From Candidatus Paceibacter sp. (GTDB lineage: Bacteria > Patescibacteriota > Minisyncoccia > Phycocordibacterales > BOKC01): DNA of 58,822 bases. A program made the position numbers and the translations under genes. Location of the stretch: the NCBI GenBank assembly GCA_020724885.1, contig DYGD01000001.1, positions 7,018 to 65,839 on the forward strand. The letters are read 5' to 3'. The notes under the pieces were generated by a model. That model saw only the letters and a list, made by a program, of their open reading frames with translations, was not told the origin of the DNA and did no database searches. Shown here piece after piece: positions 24,636 to 37,263 of the stretch. How positions within the stretch are numbered: position 1 is the first letter of the stretch; every line of letters begins with the position of its first letter.

Positions 24636-25154
24636 CTAAGCGCGGAGGAACAGCCGGCAACCGGCTCTCCAAACACATTCATGTAGGTCAGACTCAGCGC
24701 CCCAGCCCCAGCCATAACCGGAGTACACACCAATCAGTCTGACACACACGACCGCAAGCGCAAGAGGGTCATCTTCAGTCAGAACTAAGAAGAGAACATG
24801 CTTAATGTTGAGGAGGAAGTGGCCAGTCACCCCATCCCACGAATCGTTCAACACATAATTCCACTGATCCACCGCGTGGCGGATCTGACTGGGGGTAAAG
24901 ATGTGTTTCTCGCGAACAACCTCCTCACCTCCGGCTGCTTCCACTATCTCGTCAATCGTCATGTCATGATCCAGAGTGTACCCCTGGAATCTCATTGCCG
25001 GGGTTTCTCCATCACGCATCCGAACGGGAAGAAGATCCCGTTGATGGAAGGGTGAACTGGGATCTACGCTCGCCGTAAGGAAAGCATCAGCCCTCGACGA
25101 GAGAGCCGGAATCTCCAGAACAAAGTCCTTGGCAACGGAGAGTGTCCCTGTCAT
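24636..25154 (-). CDS. orphan protein between fusA and tuf; possible DGR target
   Basis: AGGAG SD; C-terminus VVCV...W...W.AG.RLFLR resembles the variable tails of CPR DGR targets. Confidence 0.65.
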   Translation of the reverse strand: MTGTLSVAKDFVLEIPALSSRADAFLTASVDPSSPFHQRDLLPVRMRDGETPAMRFQGYTLDHDMTIDEIVEAAGGEEVVREKHIFTPSQIRHAVDQWNYVLNDSWDGVTGHFLLNIKHVLFLVLTEDDPLALAVVCVRLIGVYSGYGWGWGAESDLHECVWRAGCRLFLRA

Positions 25155-25391
25155 TTTTTTCTCCTATTCTTTTATTCTTTTTGTTATGCTTCACCTCTCA
25201 CCCTTGACAACGCGCCGCAGGCCACAGGCAAAGCATTTTAGATACAGCCCATAAGGGGCTAAATTTGGCAAAAACCACTTTTGGGCTGTATCCAAGAACT
25301 TCCACGCTTCAAAGAGCAAAACTGCCTCTAGTATACACTAAAGCAGTGTTTTGACAAGTTCGAAAAACCCCCTATTGGCTAGCGGCCAAAA

Positions 25392-29867: not shown

Positions 29868-30107
29868 ATGAAAATCTGTCCAATCACAAAAAAGAAAACA
29901 ATTGTCGGTGGCGGTTATTCCAATCGCACCCGCGCCACCAAATTCAATCCGACCGGCAAATCGCCCAAACGACCGAACATCCAGCGGAAAAGAATTTATA
30001 TTCCGGAATTAAAAAAGACGGTTTCTTTGAATATCTCAACCAAAGGCCTCAAGACCATTCGCAAAAGAGGCGCTTACCAAACTCTCAAAAAAGCGGGAAT
30101 AATCTAG
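29868..30107 (+). CDS. rpmB: 50S ribosomal protein L28
   Basis: MKICPIT.K, PNIQ.K and ISTKGLKTI motifs. Confidence 0.9.
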   Translation: MKICPITKKKTIVGGGYSNRTRATKFNPTGKSPKRPNIQRKRIYIPELKKTVSLNISTKGLKTIRKRGAYQTLKKAGII

Positions 30108-30427: not shown

Positions 30428-31156
30428 TCAGAAGACGGCTATCAAGATGGCGATCGCCATCGAGACAAGAGCCACGACGCTGAAGAAACGGAACGCCCTG
30501 ACGTCTTCTTCGTCGAAGACGGCGAAGAAGGCGCCGACGGCGGCGAGGGCGGCGGCGGCGAGGGCGAGGAGGGCGGGGAGGGCGAGGAGGGCGGGGAAGT
30601 CGGGGAAGTCGGGGAAGTCGGGGAAGGCGGCGAGGAAGGCGAGGAAGGTGGCGAGGAAGGCGAGGAAGGTGGCAGCACCTATTTTCTTGCTTTTCAGCAC
30701 GTTGCTAATAAGCAAGAGACCGAGTGAACATACCGCCAAGAGACCGAAGGGGTTGGCCTTCTCCACCTCTCGGAGAACTCTTTCCGCCTCGCTTTTCGGC
30801 GCCCGGATGTCCAAGACGTCTCCTTCTCGCACCAGGACCAGCTTGTTTTCCCTCGTCTCCGCCCATGTCCAGAGGCCGACCATCCGCTGGTCAAACACCT
30901 TCGTTCTGACCGGCAGGAAGTCCCGTTCTTCGGCGATCAACTGCTTGATCGCCTCGGGGTACTTCATTGCCTCCGGAGTAGCCGTGAGACCGGTCTCCGT
31001 GTAGGACACTTCCTCTGACTGAAATCTGACACTGCCGTCAGAGCCGACGAGAACAGGTCTCGGCTCGCTCTCTTGAGCTTGAGCCAGGACAGGGACACTT
31101 GCCACGACAAGCACCACTAGCACAGCGAGAACAGCCAGCTTACCTTCTTCTTTCAT
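30428..31156 (-). CDS. GC-rich orphan membrane protein with a low-complexity NNC-codon tract
   Basis: AGGAGG SD, TTGACA-16-TATAAT promoter, signal-peptide-like N-terminus and hydrophobic C-terminus. Confidence 0.7.
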   Translation of the reverse strand: MKEEGKLAVLAVLVVLVVASVPVLAQAQESEPRPVLVGSDGSVRFQSEEVSYTETGLTATPEAMKYPEAIKQLIAEERDFLPVRTKVFDQRMVGLWTWAETRENKLVLVREGDVLDIRAPKSEAERVLREVEKANPFGLLAVCSLGLLLISNVLKSKKIGAATFLAFLATFLAFLAAFPDFPDFPDFPALLALPALLALAAAALAAVGAFFAVFDEEDVRAFRFFSVVALVSMAIAILIAVF

Positions 31157-31236
31157 CGTTCATTCCTCCTGTTGGGGTTGGGTCTTCTGATTTCAAATTC
31201 ACAAATCCGACCGGATTATATATTAAAGTAATTTTT

Positions 31237-31358
31237 TGTCAAATTTTTTGAGTGAGTGAAACTACAACCCCCGGACTTTAATTGTCCGCCCATCCGACCT
31301 AAACAAAATCGTGCCGAGGTCGTAGTTGCCAAGGGTTTTGACTCCGTTGTTTTGCAGA
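31237..31358. repeat. 122 bp direct repeat (copy of the comEC-MBL 3' end)
   Basis: Matches 33160-33281 with one mismatch. Confidence 0.95.
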
Positions 31359-31440
31359 AAATAAAAACAAATTTTTAAATGTTAACAATTTAGCGCGAAC
31401 GTCTTGGAATTGTTAACATGAGAAATTAATTAAGCAATGA

Positions 31441-31471
31441 AAAACCCGCCGGATACGACCCCGGCGGGCTT
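31441..31471 (-). terminator. intrinsic terminator after the SPFH gene
   Basis: CCCGCCGG...CCGGCGGG stem with a T-run on the minus strand. Confidence 0.7.
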
Positions 31472-31487
31472 GGAGAGAACATGCTGG

Positions 31488-32756
31488 TTAGTTGTTGTTG
31501 CCACTGACCTCAAGGTCGAGCGCTAGATCCCTGGCTGCCTTGACAGTCAGAAGATTGATGAAGTCGAGAGCGCCACCGCCGACTGCCTGATTGAAGCCTC
31601 CGTTGCCACCCATGACGACCGACGGCACCCAGGCCCCTTGGTAACCGCGGATCGCATCAGCGAACATGCGATTGACCTCGAGATAGGCCTCCAACTTCTT
31701 GTCCAGTGCTCCATCGGCAGACATGACCAGTTCCCGCCGGCGCGCTTCGCCCTCGCCAAGCAGAATTTGCTCCTGCTTGCGCAGATCGGCAGTATCCAAG
31801 TCGAGTTTGGCGACATCGCGCCGCTGTTCGGCCTCGGTCACCGCCTGTGCCTTGAGCACTTCCTGCTTCCACTTGGCTTCGGCCGCGGCTGCCTTACCCT
31901 TCTGCTCGGCGGTGATGGCCTCCTGCTCCGCCTTCTTGGCGGTAGCAATCGCGGTCTGAACCTCCATGATTGCTTCCTGCTGCTGGCGGATCTGGCTCAG
32001 AACGTTGCCGTCGTAGGAAACTTCGTTCAAAGACAAGTTGAAGATTCTGATGCCGAAGTCGCCAAGCGGGGATTCCGCTTCGCGTCGGTAGCCGAAGTCT
32101 TGCGGCCGTTCGCTCTCCACAAGCTCCACCACCCGTACGGTCTTGGTGTGACCAGTGATCGGATCAGTGGTTCGCTCGTCCCGCGACCGGGTAGCATAAG
32201 TGCCGTACTTGATCTGATCATCGATAAGTCGCAGAAGATCGTTACGCCTCGAAGCGTACGACTCAGCGGAAGTCATCAGGGGACCAGTCATGTAGACGCT
32301 CTTCTCCACCACTGTGCGGATAAGCTGCTGCTCGATCGCCCGAGGACTGCCGTAGCGAGTGTGCAATCCTCGAAGATTGTCCTCGTCGAGCGGCATCTCC
32401 CAGGAGAGCGAGCCGGAGATGTCGGCGCTGGCGCCGTCGTTGAAGAGGACCCGAATGGCATCCTCAGCGTCAGTGCCCTGACCCTCCTTAGAGGAGAACC
32501 AGAAGTGGGCGCGCTTCGGATAAGCAGTAACATAACCGAAGCCCTGCCACTTGATGCCGGGAGTAGAGTGCCAAGTCAGCTTGCCACTGATCGGACTCTG
32601 GATGACGACAACCTCGTCGGCATCGACGTTCTCAAACAACTTGAACGCCGAAAGCGAACCAGCGATGGTCAGAACCAACGCCACAATCACCAACATGATG
32701 TGCAGGGGATTGGGGTTGGCCGGACGCTCGTCACGACTCAATCTGCTCTGACTCAT
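31488..32756 (-). CDS. SPFH/Band-7 domain membrane protein
   Basis: N-terminal transmembrane helix, SPFH-like region and Ala/Glu/Gln coiled coil; GC-rich codon use. Confidence 0.75.
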   Translation of the reverse strand: MSQSRLSRDERPANPNPLHIMLVIVALVLTIAGSLSAFKLFENVDADEVVVIQSPISGKLTWHSTPGIKWQGFGYVTAYPKRAHFWFSSKEGQGTDAEDAIRVLFNDGASADISGSLSWEMPLDEDNLRGLHTRYGSPRAIEQQLIRTVVEKSVYMTGPLMTSAESYASRRNDLLRLIDDQIKYGTYATRSRDERTTDPITGHTKTVRVVELVESERPQDFGYRREAESPLGDFGIRIFNLSLNEVSYDGNVLSQIRQQQEAIMEVQTAIATAKKAEQEAITAEQKGKAAAAEAKWKQEVLKAQAVTEAEQRRDVAKLDLDTADLRKQEQILLGEGEARRRELVMSADGALDKKLEAYLEVNRMFADAIRGYQGAWVPSVVMGGNGGFNQAVGGGALDFINLLTVKAARDLALDLEVSGNNN

Positions 32757-32823
32757 ACTTTTCCTTTCTTCCTGTTTTGTTCGGCTGAACTTTCTTCAGA
32801 CCGAAAGTGAGTGAATGAGGATT

Positions 32824-33075
32824 TCAATCCTCATCGAGATCGAGAACTTCCAGAGCTCTATTAACATCCTCCTCGGCGCCCCGAACGATTCGAGCGTCTC
32901 CAAGAGTATACCTAGACTTCATGGCCTCCGACTCCACAGTTCTTCCTCCCCTGAAAATAAAACGAATGACCGGAAACGGTCTCGTCCTATTGAACAGGGG
33001 GAGAATGATCTCCGAGAGTAAAAGACCCAACAGCATGGCCAGGGCCAGAAACACCAAGAGTCGCAACAGAAACAT
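32824..33075 (-). CDS. small membrane protein upstream of the SPFH gene
   Basis: AGGAGG SD and N-terminal hydrophobic helix. Confidence 0.65.
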   Translation of the reverse strand: MFLLRLLVFLALAMLLGLLLSEIILPLFNRTRPFPVIRFIFRGGRTVESEAMKSRYTLGDARIVRGAEEDVNRALEVLDLDED

Positions 33076-33159
33076 GGATTGTGCCTCCTTCTCGGCCTAA
33101 GCCGGGTTATGACAAGTTGCAAACTAACTCTTTTTTAATTATAACAAATCAAATAAAAA

Positions 33160-33281
33160 TGTCAAATTTTTTGAATGAGTGAAACTACAACCCCCGGACT
33201 TTAATTGTCCGCCCATCCGACCTAAACAAAATCGTGCCGAGGTCGTAGTTGCCAAGGGTTTTGACTCCGTTGTTTTGCAGA
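33160..33281. repeat. 122 bp direct repeat (native copy)
   Basis: Matches 31237-31358; overlaps the last codons of the MBL gene. Confidence 0.95.
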
Positions 33282-34048
33282 GTTTCCAAAACTTCCTTGT
33301 GCGGATGTCCGTATTTATTGTCCCGACCGGCTTGAATAACGGCAATGTCCGGCCGAACCGCTTTGACGAAAGAATCAGAAGTAGAGGTCTTTGAACCGTG
33401 GTGGCCGACCTTTAGAACATCGCTTTTTAGAATCTCACCGTCCAGAAAAACCAGATATTCTTCAATCTTTATCGGCGCGTCGCCGGTGAGCATAAAAGAA
33501 TTCTCGCCAAAAAATAATTTGCCGACGATAGAAGCATCGTTGGGGTTGAGTCCCGAAACATCCCTGTCCGGGAAAAGGACGACGAAAACTGCGCCGCCGC
33601 CCAAATCAACAAACATTCCTCTTTCAGCAACAATTCGCTTGGCTGGCGATTCTTCCGCTAAATAATTAAAGTTATCGACAATTCTGGTAGGGTGAGCTAC
33701 TCCTGATTCAATAATAAGATCGGTTTCAAATCTCTCCAAAATTGGAATAAAACCGCCGATGTGGTCAGCATCCGAATGGGTAACGAGCAATACTTCTATC
33801 TTTCGGTCATGAAAAGGCAGAGATTTTGACAAAGAATCCAAGACCGCGCCTCCCTGGCCAGCATCTATGAGCATTTTGTTGCCAGATGGCGATTTTATCA
33901 AAATAGCGTCCCCCTGCCCGACATCAAGAAAATAAACCCGGAGAGAAGAATCAGATGACCAGACGAAATTCCAAATAAAGAGATTAGAAACCGCCAAAAA
34001 TCCCAAAGTCAAAAACCAATGATACTTTACAAAAAATGATTTCATCAA
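33185..34048 (-). CDS. ComEC/Rec2-related metallo-beta-lactamase-fold protein
   Basis: FLDVGQGDA, THSDADHIGG, LKVGHHGS and N.YGHPH motifs. Confidence 0.92.
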   Translation of the reverse strand: MMKSFFVKYHWFLTLGFLAVSNLFIWNFVWSSDSSLRVYFLDVGQGDAILIKSPSGNKMLIDAGQGGAVLDSLSKSLPFHDRKIEVLLVTHSDADHIGGFIPILERFETDLIIESGVAHPTRIVDNFNYLAEESPAKRIVAERGMFVDLGGGAVFVVLFPDRDVSGLNPNDASIVGKLFFGENSFMLTGDAPIKIEEYLVFLDGEILKSDVLKVGHHGSKTSTSDSFVKAVRPDIAVIQAGRDNKYGHPHKEVLETLQNNGVKTLGNYDLGTILFRSDGRTIKVRGL

Positions 34049-34699: not shown

Positions 34700-36220
34700 T
34701 TGAGAATGAAACCGGCCGATTGGCTTTTCTTTTTTTGTCTCGCTTTCATCGGCGGAGTGTTCCTAAAATCTTTCTGGGATACTCCATGGCTGTTTTTCCT
34801 AAATTTGGCTTTTGTCTCTCTGGCCGCTTTTGTTTTAAGTTTTTTTGTTTTCCATAAACCGGTAAAAATTTTTCTGCCAATCTCTTTGGTTTTTCTCACC
34901 GCGGGCTTGGGAATTCTGCGGACCGACTTCAAAATTTCCGCTCCGGACCAACTGCAGGCCTACAGAGACAACGAGGAAATTGTTGAGATTGCGGGGAAAA
35001 TAAAAGGCCAGCCGAGTTTGAGAGACAATCATATCAAGTACACCGTATTAACTGACACTTTCAGCGAAAAAATTTTAATCAACGCCGAGCTGACGGAAAA
35101 ATTTAACCCGGGTGACAAGATTTTAATCCGGGGCAAGCTCCAGACCCCCGCTGAATTTCCCGACTTTAATTATCGCGAATTCTTACAAAAAGACGGAATC
35201 CAAACAGTCGCCTATTATCCGGAGATTGAAATTTTGAAAGAGAAAAAATGGAGTTTTTTGGGCTTGGTCTTAAAAGCTAAAAACAAACTTAGAGAGGCAA
35301 ACAGAAAAATTATTCCTTTTCCGCAAGGTGAAATTTTGGCGGCGATGACACTCGGCGACGCCCCTCTTATGCCCCAAACGGTAAAAGACAATTTTAATAA
35401 AGTTGGTATTCGCCATATCACCGCCATCTCCGGAATGCATATCGGAATTATTGCGGGGCTCTTAGCGGGGATCTTGTATGCAAGCCCGTTAAAGAATAAA
35501 ACTTTTTGGATTGTCTCAATCTTTTTAATTTTTTATGTGACACTGGTCGGCTGGCCGGCCTCAGCTGTCCGGGCCGCCATTATGGGTTCAATCTTGCTTT
35601 TAGCCGAGAAAGTCAGAAGGAAATATTTTGCCGAACGCGCGCTGGTCTTAGCCGCTTTTGTAATGCTTCTTTTAAACCCCCTACTCTTGCGTCTTGATGT
35701 CGGCTTCCAGCTTTCTTTTCTGGCGGTTTTGGGAATTATCACTACCGCTCCATTTTTTGCCCAGATTTTAAAAAGGTTTATAAGATTTAAATACCTCACC
35801 CAAATCGTCGCCATCACTCTCGCCGCCCAAGTTTTTACCCTGCCGATTTTAATTTACAATTTCGGAATTTTTTCCACCGTCTCGCCTCTGGCAAATGTTT
35901 TAGTGGTACCGCTCGTGCCGTTTATAATCGTCGGCGGATTTCTGGCGATGATTGGTGGCGCAATTCACGAGTGGTTGGGTTTGGTTTTGGCTTTTCCAGT
36001 TTATCTAATCCTTAAATACATCACTTGGCTAAGCGAATTTGCGGCTGACTCTCCGTGGTCATTCCAAACAATCTCCGGCCTCCATGTCTTCTGGATGATT
36101 CTTTATTATTTGATTCTCCTACCTTTTGCCTTCTGGCTGAAAAGAAAACTGCCACAAGCTGAATTAAATCTTCTACCGAAAACTAATAAAAATGAAAACA
36201 AAAACACAGATCGGAATTAA
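34700..36220 (+). CDS. comEC: ComEC/Rec2 competence membrane protein
   Basis: G.RHITAISGMH, SAVRAAIM and DVGFQLSFLA motifs; lacks a fused MBL domain. Confidence 0.92.
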   Translation: MRMKPADWLFFFCLAFIGGVFLKSFWDTPWLFFLNLAFVSLAAFVLSFFVFHKPVKIFLPISLVFLTAGLGILRTDFKISAPDQLQAYRDNEEIVEIAGKIKGQPSLRDNHIKYTVLTDTFSEKILINAELTEKFNPGDKILIRGKLQTPAEFPDFNYREFLQKDGIQTVAYYPEIEILKEKKWSFLGLVLKAKNKLREANRKIIPFPQGEILAAMTLGDAPLMPQTVKDNFNKVGIRHITAISGMHIGIIAGLLAGILYASPLKNKTFWIVSIFLIFYVTLVGWPASAVRAAIMGSILLLAEKVRRKYFAERALVLAAFVMLLLNPLLLRLDVGFQLSFLAVLGIITTAPFFAQILKRFIRFKYLTQIVAITLAAQVFTLPILIYNFGIFSTVSPLANVLVVPLVPFIIVGGFLAMIGGAIHEWLGLVLAFPVYLILKYITWLSEFAADSPWSFQTISGLHVFWMILYYLILLPFAFWLKRKLPQAELNLLPKTNKNENKNTDRN

Positions 36221-36228
36221 CAACAGAG

Positions 36229-36264
36229 GAGACAATTTGACGATCGCCAAATTGTCTCTATAAT
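36229..36264 (+). promoter_or_regulatory. palindromic operator overlapping a promoter
   Basis: GAGACAATTTGACGATCGCCAAATTGTCTC contains TTGACG and the 16 bp spacer, and abuts TATAAT. Confidence 0.7.
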
Positions 36265-36270
36265 AGAATT

Positions 36271-36780
36271 ATGAGCTTCACAGAAGATTTACTTTCAACT
36301 CTCACCACTTTGAGTGACTACTCACGGCTTTGGGCTAGAGTTCGCGGGTCTGGAAAGATCTACGGAAGACCTAAATCGGATTCGGTTGACTCTATATCTT
36401 ATAAAACTTTTTGGAAAACTCTCTCCCGTTTGGAACAAAGAGGATTGGTTGAGAACAAAGGCAACCAATGGAAGATTACTTCTCTAGGATTGGACTATCT
36501 CAAAAAACTACAGAGAAAGAAAAAATTACCGAAACACTCCGCCAAATCTCTGTCGTCCAAACCCAAAAGAATGATTATAATTTTTGATATACCGGAAAAA
36601 TTCCGGCGAGAGAGAGCGTGGTTAAGGTTTGAGTTAACAAATCTCGGCTTTGTAATGCTTCAGAAAAGCGTTTGGTTTGGCCCAGCGCCATTGCCAAAAG
36701 AATTTATAAAATCCTTAAAGGAACTGAAAATTTTACCCTATTTGAAATTCTTTAAAGCAACTGAAGAAGAAATCGTTTAA
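36271..36780 (+). CDS. PaaX-like regulator (wHTH plus Cas2-like domain)
   Basis: LSRLEQRGLV...W.IT..G helix-wing region; IIFDIPE..R..R..LR..L..LGF..LQKSVW motif. Confidence 0.8.
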   Translation: MSFTEDLLSTLTTLSDYSRLWARVRGSGKIYGRPKSDSVDSISYKTFWKTLSRLEQRGLVENKGNQWKITSLGLDYLKKLQRKKKLPKHSAKSLSSKPKRMIIIFDIPEKFRRERAWLRFELTNLGFVMLQKSVWFGPAPLPKEFIKSLKELKILPYLKFFKATEEEIV

Positions 36781-36801
36781 CACCAGAACCCAACTCAAAG
36801 T

Positions 36802-36843
36802 TCAACGGAGACAACTTGGCGATCGCCAAGTTGTCTCCGTTGA
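36802..36843. repeat. perfect 42 bp palindrome
   Basis: TCAACGGAGACAACTTGGCGA|TCGCCAAGTTGTCTCCGTTGA. Confidence 0.95.
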
Positions 36844-36942
36844 CATCTGAAACGAGAAAATGATAGTGTCAGCGGAACAAAATCAGCGGTGCTCGTAGCA
36901 CCGCTAACAGACGGGGAAGAAACAGGGGTAAGGAGACATAAT

Positions 36943-37263
36943 ATGGAATGGTTTTGGGTCATAACCATTACCTACGGATGTGTCGCTATAATCGGAGGTA
37001 TTTACTACTTCGCCTTCGTCAGCAGTGATTGCTATCGAGAAGAGGAGGAAGCTGGTCGAGTTCCCATGGATCCTGTCTTCACTCAAGTGATGATCTTTCT
37101 TGTCGTTCCTATACTTTTCGGCATTCTCTGGCTACCGCTGCTCATCGTACTCATGCAAGAGAAGAGAGAGAGGGGGGGTGAAGTGATCCGAATCCAGGAA
37201 GCCGACCCGTCAAACCGCCGGCACTCGCTCGGCGGTTTTTTCATTTTCTCCAACTTTCTATAA
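36943..37263 (+). CDS. orphan two-helix membrane protein
   Basis: AAGGAG SD before ATG 36943; two hydrophobic segments. Confidence 0.55.
   Translation: MEWFWVITITYGCVAIIGGIYYFAFVSSDCYREEEEAGRVPMDPVFTQVMIFLVVPILFGILWLPLLIVLMQEKRERGGEVIRIQEADPSNRRHSLGGFFIFSNFL

What the first reader, a model, noticed from the sequence alone, without database searches (positions are those of the whole stretch)
31237..33281. Cassette array at the comEC 3' end with a shared -35 box
Seen: a 122 bp direct repeat (one mismatch) covers the last codons of the MBL gene plus downstream DNA and brackets a 1.8 kb GC-rich two-gene cassette. The repeat stops exactly at TTGACA (minus strand). Beyond each copy, different sequence supplies TATAAT 16 bp away, giving two consensus promoters for two different cassettes. 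No integrase is present. Inference: promoter-anchored cassette capture or stacking beside a DNA-uptake gene, excisable by recombination. Caveat: the assembly may have concatenated two strain alleles.
Basis: partly seen in the sequence, partly recalled or inferred. Interest (0 to 1): 0.72.

Follow-up and report, generated by a model that had tools for sequence, protein, structure and literature searches.

The report
Stacked gene cassettes behind competence gene
In a tiny-genome groundwater bacterium, a foreign two-gene unit sits between two near-identical copies of the end of a DNA-uptake gene and joins the chromosome exactly at a promoter's -35 box; it likely arrived by ordinary recombination with a relative's DNA rather than through a dedicated integrase, a known but still unexplained kind of insertion that recurs behind other genes in this group.

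Summary
A 122-bp direct repeat (one mismatch) covers the last 97 nt of the ComEC C-terminal (MBL) gene plus 25 nt to TTGACA and brackets a 1,801-bp GC-rich small-ORF + SPFH unit. Each copy feeds a perfect TTGACA-16-TATAAT site. The host is a Patescibacteria genome. Unitig depths in the deepest run (repeat 95.8, cassette 45.8, flanks 47.8/50.5) argue against a two-strain chimera. The closest relatives have neither cassette. The SPFH unit circulates among Patescibacteria and large phages with its own promoter. The same layout (gene end, integrase-free cassette, displaced gene end) turned up in ten other events, at four other genes as well as this one. In eight of them the two copies differ by 46 synonymous against 7 non-synonymous codons, so donors likely brought their own gene end. 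Only this event ends at a -35 box (1 of 11 by scan), and comEC is not special. However, -35 boxes are frequent junctions for other small elements in these genomes. Verdict: a non-restriction-modification variant of 'insertion with long target duplication'. Earlier agents of this scan noted this kind in other Patescibacteria.

The parts
33185..34048 (-). ComEC C-terminal metallo-beta-lactamase-fold gene (287 aa); intact, completed by the upstream repeat copy
33160..33281 (-). upstream repeat copy: last 97 nt of the gene plus 25 nt ending in TTGACA
33138..33165 (-). consensus sigma-70-type site for cassette B (12/12, spacer 16); the -35 box lies in the repeat, spacer and -10 box in the cassette
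32824..33075 (-). 83-aa ORF with a hydrophobic N-terminus; a similar small ORF precedes SPFH homologues in 12 of 14 cellular loci
   Evidence: no Pfam, NCBIfam or PHROG hit
31488..32756 (-). SPFH/band-7 protein (422 aa), GC3 0.72
   Evidence: PF01145, phrog_11908
31440..31468 (-). GC-rich hairpin followed by a T run, a likely terminator of cassette B
   Evidence: read by eye; not listed by the scan
31359..31439 (.). AT-rich cassette tail with a 12-bp inverted repeat (31379-31390 / 31408-31419); its edge at 31358/31359 is the non-homologous joint
   Evidence: no match elsewhere in the genome or held loci
31237..31358 (-). displaced orphan copy of the gene end, ending in TTGACA
31215..31242 (-). 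consensus sigma-70-type site for cassette A (12/12, spacer 16)
30428..31156 (-). cassette A: 242-aa GC-rich ORFan, predicted membrane or secreted protein with a low-complexity repeat; variable in the population
29868..30107 (+). rpmB (L28), the conserved convergent neighbour that directly follows the MBL gene in G001 and G002
34700..36220 (+). ComEC channel gene (DUF4131 + Competence domains), separate from the MBL gene

Best explanation
A self-contained, promoter-bearing two-gene unit (small membrane protein plus SPFH protein) sits between two copies of the 3' end of the ComEC C-terminal gene, and it was likely integrated by host recombination with DNA from a close relative, not by its own integrase. 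Shown: tandem structure, intact gene, displaced gene end, two consensus promoters, absence of both cassettes in the nearest relatives. Inferred step 1: cassette A inserted first behind the stop codon. Inferred step 2: in a sister lineage, cassette B replaced or joined A by crossing over at the A-tract/TTGACA that two strong promoters share, which keeps a working hybrid promoter. Inferred step 3: donor DNA carrying [gene end + B], probably taken up by natural competence, paired through the gene end. Its far end was joined non-homologously 97 nt inside the gene, which duplicates the end and stacks B in front of A. The repeat ends at TTGACA because donor and recipient stop matching there. RecA recombination between the copies would be able to drop or amplify B.
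For: One unitig (31329-33205) joins cassette B to the repeat at both ends in all five runs laid. In X1 the repeat has twice the flank depth and B equals the flanks. G001 and G002 show the MBL gene directly facing rpmB. The SPFH unit is patchy (5 of 400 other genomes of the order), lies at unrelated sites, and brings its own TTGACA-type site at about the same distance in 8 of 14 cellular loci. Ten other events have the same layout. In 8 of them the copies differ by 46 synonymous and 7 non-synonymous codons; decay of a dead copy would give mostly non-synonymous changes, so both copies were coding. The four MBL events begin at four different codons (9, 12, 14 and 42 residues before the G-T/A-I motif), so there is no fixed att core. 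The genome encodes ComEC and DprA. Com-dependent transformation is shown in Saccharibacteria (PMC10633639, passages). A divergent 210-bp patch segregates inside cassette A.
Against: Here the single mismatch is non-coding, so a donor origin for this particular copy is borrowed from the other loci; a one-step local duplication fits equally well. No strain with B alone, or with A alone, was seen. Repeat depth falls short of the tandem expectation in the other runs: 23 vs 31 (X2), 936 vs 1191 (X4), 1824 vs 3070 (X5). No read or contig spans both copies. That anchor-plus-illegitimate-joint recombination can yield duplications could not be checked in the primary papers (not held). Competence is untested in this lineage.
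Confidence: 0.55

Rival explanations
1. Promoter-targeted capture: a nuclease or transposase acting in trans cuts at the TTGAC of strong promoters, and incoming cassettes are joined there. The long duplication is a by-product of repairing the other end.
For: The junction is exactly at TTGACA, with perfect -10 boxes on both sides. Among 970 promoter-like sites in 3.2 Mb, 34 pairs share the upstream part up to TTGAC only and 19 pairs share the part from TTGAC on only. In G002, 7 of 61 end-hits of a palindromic mini-element are followed by TTGAC, and all 7 have a -10-like hexamer 16-18 bp on, against a background of 152 of 970. G000 encodes one Y1 transposase. The cassette's own promoter lies within 40 bp of the other joint in 3 of 10 other events, against 6% after stop codons.
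Against: 0 of 10 other gene-end duplications end at a -35 box in the scan; one weak site at the G002 gnd edge was seen by eye only. The mini-elements have short flanking repeats and hairpin ends, which this insert lacks. G002 has the mini-element but no Y1 match. Selection for a working promoter plus microhomology explains the junction without an enzyme. The pair counts include orthologous promoters and are not independent.
Confidence: 0.18
2. Remnant of a site-specific integrative element (as phage 21 and e14 at icd) that carried a replacement 3' end and later lost its integrase and most of its body, leaving a moron.
For: Replacement gene ends with synonymous differences are what such elements carry (recalled). 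The SPFH has 41-53% identical relatives on 6 viral contigs and a 51% relative in a 462-kb phage.
Against: Start points vary within one gene. No integrase remnant on the contig. The copies are 121/122 identical, including 25 non-coding host bases, which leaves little time for decay. Inserts are only 0.55-2.6 kb in all 11 events.
Confidence: 0.12
3. Assembly artefact: two strain alleles concatenated, or cassette B exists as a free circle with one repeat copy.
For: No single record spans both copies, and the de Bruijn loop cannot tell a tandem from a circle. In X5, B is 1.5 times the flank depth. Four of the five holder runs are flagged as possible sources of this assembly.
Against: Two alternative alleles would leave B's tail running into other sequence and would halve its depth. 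No loose ends exist, and B/flank depth is about 0.93-0.98 in X1 and X3. Both cassettes occur in two very small runs of about one genome's size (0.55 and 0.74 Mb).
Confidence: 0.05

Closest known systems
Insertion with long target duplication (Nobusato et al. 2000, seen only as a reference; Furuta et al. 2010, PMC2853133, passages and sections 15 and 18 read)
   Same: Insert under 20 kb, duplication over 30 bp and of variable length, no mobility gene, repeat spanning a stop codon so that the gene stays intact; reported mostly in naturally competent species; mechanism unexplained.
   Different: Cargo is not a restriction-modification system, so their proposed link to DNA breakage by RM enzymes cannot apply. 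Synonymous divergence in sister events points to donor-carried gene ends, not copying of the target. Here the junction is a -35 box.
PeSL promoter/stem-loop cassettes of T4-type phages (Arbiol et al. 2010, PMC2839356, abstract and passages read)
   Same: Non-essential ORFs behind strong sigma-70-like promoters, crossover within promoter elements, no integrase, circles by recombination between flanking repeats.
   Different: PeSLs are a dispersed family of about 100-bp promoter-terminator elements. This repeat is a unique two-copy piece of host coding sequence with only the -35 box.
Phage morons (as described in PMC2839356, discussion passage)
   Same: One or two genes with their own promoter and terminator, foreign composition, phage relatives.
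   Different: Sits in a cellular chromosome and has a long flanking duplication.
Homology-facilitated illegitimate recombination during natural transformation (described second-hand in PMC6382021, passages)
   Same: One homologous anchor plus one microhomology joint would give this structure.
   Different: Duplication products are not documented in what I could read; not tested in Patescibacteria.
e14 / phage 21 integration at icd with displaced icdC end (recalled; lead also in note e1-1273765)
   Same: Gene completed by an incoming 3' end, old end left as an orphan.
   Different: Those use an integrase and a fixed att core; neither is found here.
Deletion-coupled insertions of Haloquadratum (PMC3119063, passages)
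   Same: [quoted passage not shown]
   Different: No long duplication there; the A-only and B-only alleles are inferred here, not seen.

Membership tests
Insertion with long target duplication | Duplication longer than 30 bp flanking the insert | tested here: met
   122 bp
Insertion with long target duplication | Insert under 20 kb with no mobility gene | tested here: met
   1,801 bp
Insertion with long target duplication | Cargo includes restriction and modification genes (criterion in PMC2853133) | tested here: not met
   small ORF plus SPFH
Insertion with long target duplication | Empty site with one copy in a close relative | tested here: inconclusive
   G001 and G002 lack both cassettes but are too distant to align at the DNA level; no conspecific empty allele visible
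PeSL cassettes | Dispersed repeat containing a full promoter and a terminator stem-loop | tested here: not met
   two copies only in the genome, -35 box only
PeSL cassettes | Excised mini-circles | not testable with these tools
   unitigs cannot separate circle from tandem
Site-specific element at a gene 3' end (e14/phage 21 type) | Integrase in or beside the insert | tested here: not met
   none on this contig
Site-specific element at a gene 3' end (e14/phage 21 type) | Fixed crossover position among independent events | tested here: not met
   four MBL events start at four codons; edges of diverged copies are approximate
Site-specific element at a gene 3' end (e14/phage 21 type) | Replacement 3' end restores the gene | tested here: met
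Integron cassette array | Cassette edges at attC core sites (RYYYAAC/GTTRRRY, recalled) | tested here: not met
   neither junction nor the tail inverted repeat fits, read by eye; no model search run
Homology-facilitated illegitimate recombination | Dependence on DNA uptake and RecA; microhomology at the illegitimate joint | not testable with these tools
   donor sequence unknown; ComEC and DprA present

The most novel reading that the evidence does not exclude
Patescibacteria run an integrase-free gene-capture route in which the -35 box of strong promoters is a preferred, possibly enzyme-targeted, joining point: incoming cassettes and mini-elements are spliced at TTGAC, arrive expressed, and stack behind conserved genes with donor gene ends as anchors.
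Probability: 0.17. Interest if true: 0.78.

Novelty: new variant of a known kind. Interest (0 to 1): 0.44.

Why it matters
Insertion with long target duplication has lacked a mechanism since 2000 and was tied to restriction enzymes. Patescibacteria supply many cases with other cargo. The synonymous divergence between copies (46 vs 7) says the incoming DNA brings its own gene end, which points to transformation-type recombination. That is now testable, because Saccharibacteria can be transformed and comEC can be deleted. It would help explain how streamlined genomes with few integrases keep gaining toxin-antitoxin pairs and phage-like genes. If -35 boxes are true targets, it would be a new way of acquiring genes that are expressed on arrival.

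Tried and rejected
No RNA holder was listed, so nothing is said on expression. Runs X2 and X3 give identical figures and are treated as one data set; X1-X4 may be the source of the assembly. A search for a third cassette behind the same -35 box in four runs found no loose ends. No same-species relatives were returned by the metagenome scan (best 66% identity; the tool may leave near records out). A comEC-specific hotspot was rejected: 3 of 100 loci with at least 300 bp downstream (this one included) have a promoter-like site within 150 bp of the stop, and 1 has a displaced end (10 of 110 loci dropped as too short). Of 19 genomes with two MBL C-terminal matches I followed 17: 2 are true nearby displaced ends, 14 are weak hits, and G377's lies on another contig without DNA similarity. 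G042 (two whole copies, 7% contamination) was not followed. The full rpmB query is insensitive to short displaced ends (1 clear case among 5 genomes checked). No direct repeat brackets the SPFH unit in its other hosts. The 242-aa protein has no homologue or usable fold match. The DGR reading of the minor allele was rejected: changes are not adenine-specific. A Y1 insertion reading of this insert was considered, but no sub-terminal hairpin lies at its left edge (by eye). Literature: searches returned no paper describing this in Patescibacteria; the library lacks most subscription journals, and no supplements were read.

Full report
Observation. The window is contig C7:7018-65839 of a 592-kb, 18-contig genome. 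Its gene content and the record titles of relatives place it in Patescibacteria. The repeat lies at 31237-31358 and 33160-33281, with one mismatch at 31252/33175. Read on the minus strand it covers the last 97 nt of a 287-aa MBL-fold gene and 25 nt ending in TTGACA. Both copies continue into different spacers and a perfect TATAAT 16 bp on; only four such perfect sites exist in the genome. The MBL gene matches the C-terminal part of the ComEC profile, and the ComEC channel is a separate gene on the other strand. Between the copies lie an 83-aa ORF, an SPFH gene, a hairpin and an AT-rich tail (cassette B; 1,801 bp, GC 0.54 vs 0.43). Behind the displaced copy lies a 242-aa GC-rich ORFan, cassette A.

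Is it real? Five public runs hold the region; four may be the assembly's source. In every run laid, one 1,877-bp unitig joins cassette B to the repeat at both ends and the repeat collapses into one 106-bp unitig. In X1 the depths are left flank 47.8, repeat 95.8, B 45.8 and right flank 50.5, as a tandem predicts. In X2/X3 (one data set) they are 14.5, 23.1, 14.9 and 16. The very small runs X4 and X5 hold both cassettes but are uneven, with repeat depth 0.79 and 0.59 of the tandem expectation. There are no loose ends at either copy. Two alternative alleles do not fit. A free circle at about one copy per chromosome is not formally excluded, and no record spans both copies.

Relatives. In G001 (same genus, closed) and G002 (same family) the MBL gene directly faces rpmB, with neither cassette and no promoter after the stop. 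The SPFH gene was found in 5 of 400 other genomes of the order at unrelated sites, in 12 GTDB loci of which 8 are titled as Patescibacteria groups, and on 6 viral contigs and a 462-kb phage. A small ORF precedes it in 12 of 14 cellular loci, and a TTGACA-type site lies 370-500 bp upstream in 8 of 14; here it is at 410 bp. B is therefore a moron-like unit with its own promoter, and the junction falls on that promoter's -35 box.

The layout recurs. Among loci fetched for other reasons, and by a targeted search, I found ten more events in which a gene end is duplicated around a 0.55-2.6 kb insert: MBL (L111, G147, G176), rpmB (L059, twice stacked in L068, L198), an M50 peptidase (L076), gnd (G002), and a 5' start in this genome around a HicAB-like pair (C15). 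None of the 16 cargo ORFs scanned is an integrase; several are toxin-antitoxin genes, and the remaining ORFs were not scanned. For the MBL gene the rate is 2 of 230 other genomes with a match. In the eight events with ungapped coding differences, 46 codon differences are synonymous and 7 are not (the gapped L068 copy, the identical C15 pair and this locus are left out). Decay of a dead copy would give mostly non-synonymous changes, so both copies were coding sequence in different lineages: the incoming DNA likely brought its own gene end. Start points differ among the four MBL events, which argues against a fixed attachment site.

The -35 box. With an objective scan, only this event of 11 ends at a -35 box. 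The cassette's own promoter is within 40 bp of the other joint in 3 of 10 other events, against 5.8% after stop codons and 1.5% at random, a small and post hoc sample. A palindromic mini-element in G002 sits in front of TTGAC in 7 of 61 end-hits, each with a -10-like hexamer in place (background 152 of 970). So -35 boxes are frequent junctions. Whether an enzyme targets them, or microhomology plus selection for expression suffices, is open. The 13-mer of A-tract plus TTGACA occurs three times in the genome.

Mechanism. I commit (0.55) to host recombination: a promoter-to-promoter crossover placed B behind the same -35 box as A in a sister lineage, and donor DNA then integrated through the gene end with one non-homologous joint inside the gene, stacking B before A. 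All of these steps are inferred. ComEC and DprA are present, Saccharibacteria transform through the com system (PMC10633639, passages), and a 210-bp patch with 36 differences, 20 at third codon positions, segregates in cassette A at about a quarter to a third of the depth, consistent with recombination with a divergent donor. Rivals are enzyme targeting of -35 boxes (0.18), a decayed site-specific element (0.12) and an artefact or free circle (0.05).

Known kinds. The structure meets the size and no-mobility-gene criteria of insertion with long target duplication but not the restriction-modification cargo (PMC2853133). It works like PeSL shuffling in crossing at a promoter but is not a PeSL (PMC2839356). 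Three searches found no paper on this in Patescibacteria. Earlier agents of this scan noted the same kind at other genes in other genomes, and gave me the lead to the Furuta paper. I rate it a new variant of a known kind, interest 0.44.

Noticed in passing
window 30858-31127 and 30553-30626: Cassette A is variable in the population: a minor allele with 36 differences in 210 bp (20 at third codon positions; depth 14.4 vs 45.3 in X1, 5.1 vs 11 in X3) and a 72-bp in-frame skip in X4.
   Followed up: partly
G002 (L199-L233), e.g. C1 near 122640, 329344, 423288, 585663, 617572, 682271: A palindromic mini-element with GTAG-type ends is often flanked by TTGAC on both sides inside promoter-like sites, as if it inserts at -35 boxes and regenerates them; one copy interrupts a member of a five-copy promoter family. 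A different family does the same in G000 (C15 near 8097, C10 near 57912, C3 start).
   Followed up: partly
G000 C15:37384-39136: A 74-bp perfect repeat containing a gene's first codons brackets a HicAB-like pair and a membrane-protein gene; mirror image of the present case.
   Followed up: partly
window 31379-31419: 12-bp perfect inverted repeat with a 17-bp spacer in the tail of cassette B; not found elsewhere in the genome or held loci; function unknown.
   Followed up: partly
window 36229-37263: PaaX-like gene between two long palindromes; the downstream one ends in TTGACA in front of a GC-richer ORF, and the same palindrome-TTGACA junction with another spacer occurs on C10.
   Followed up: no
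window 24636-25356; G000 C9:17128, C8:38758, C15:8097: Several GC-rich islands share a promoter and leader that begin at the -35 box and carry a TCTTTGAA motif resembling boxA (name recalled).
   Followed up: no
G001 C1:507-512 kb; G000 C15:5.3-8.1 kb: Stacks of promoter-led GC-rich genes with repeated promoter/leader segments whose edges are not at TTGACA.
   Followed up: partly
G000 C16:26582-27103, C8:52271-52867; L092, L111, L247: Repeat pairs of about 110-130 bp differing mostly at adenines, resembling DGR template and variable repeats.
   Followed up: no
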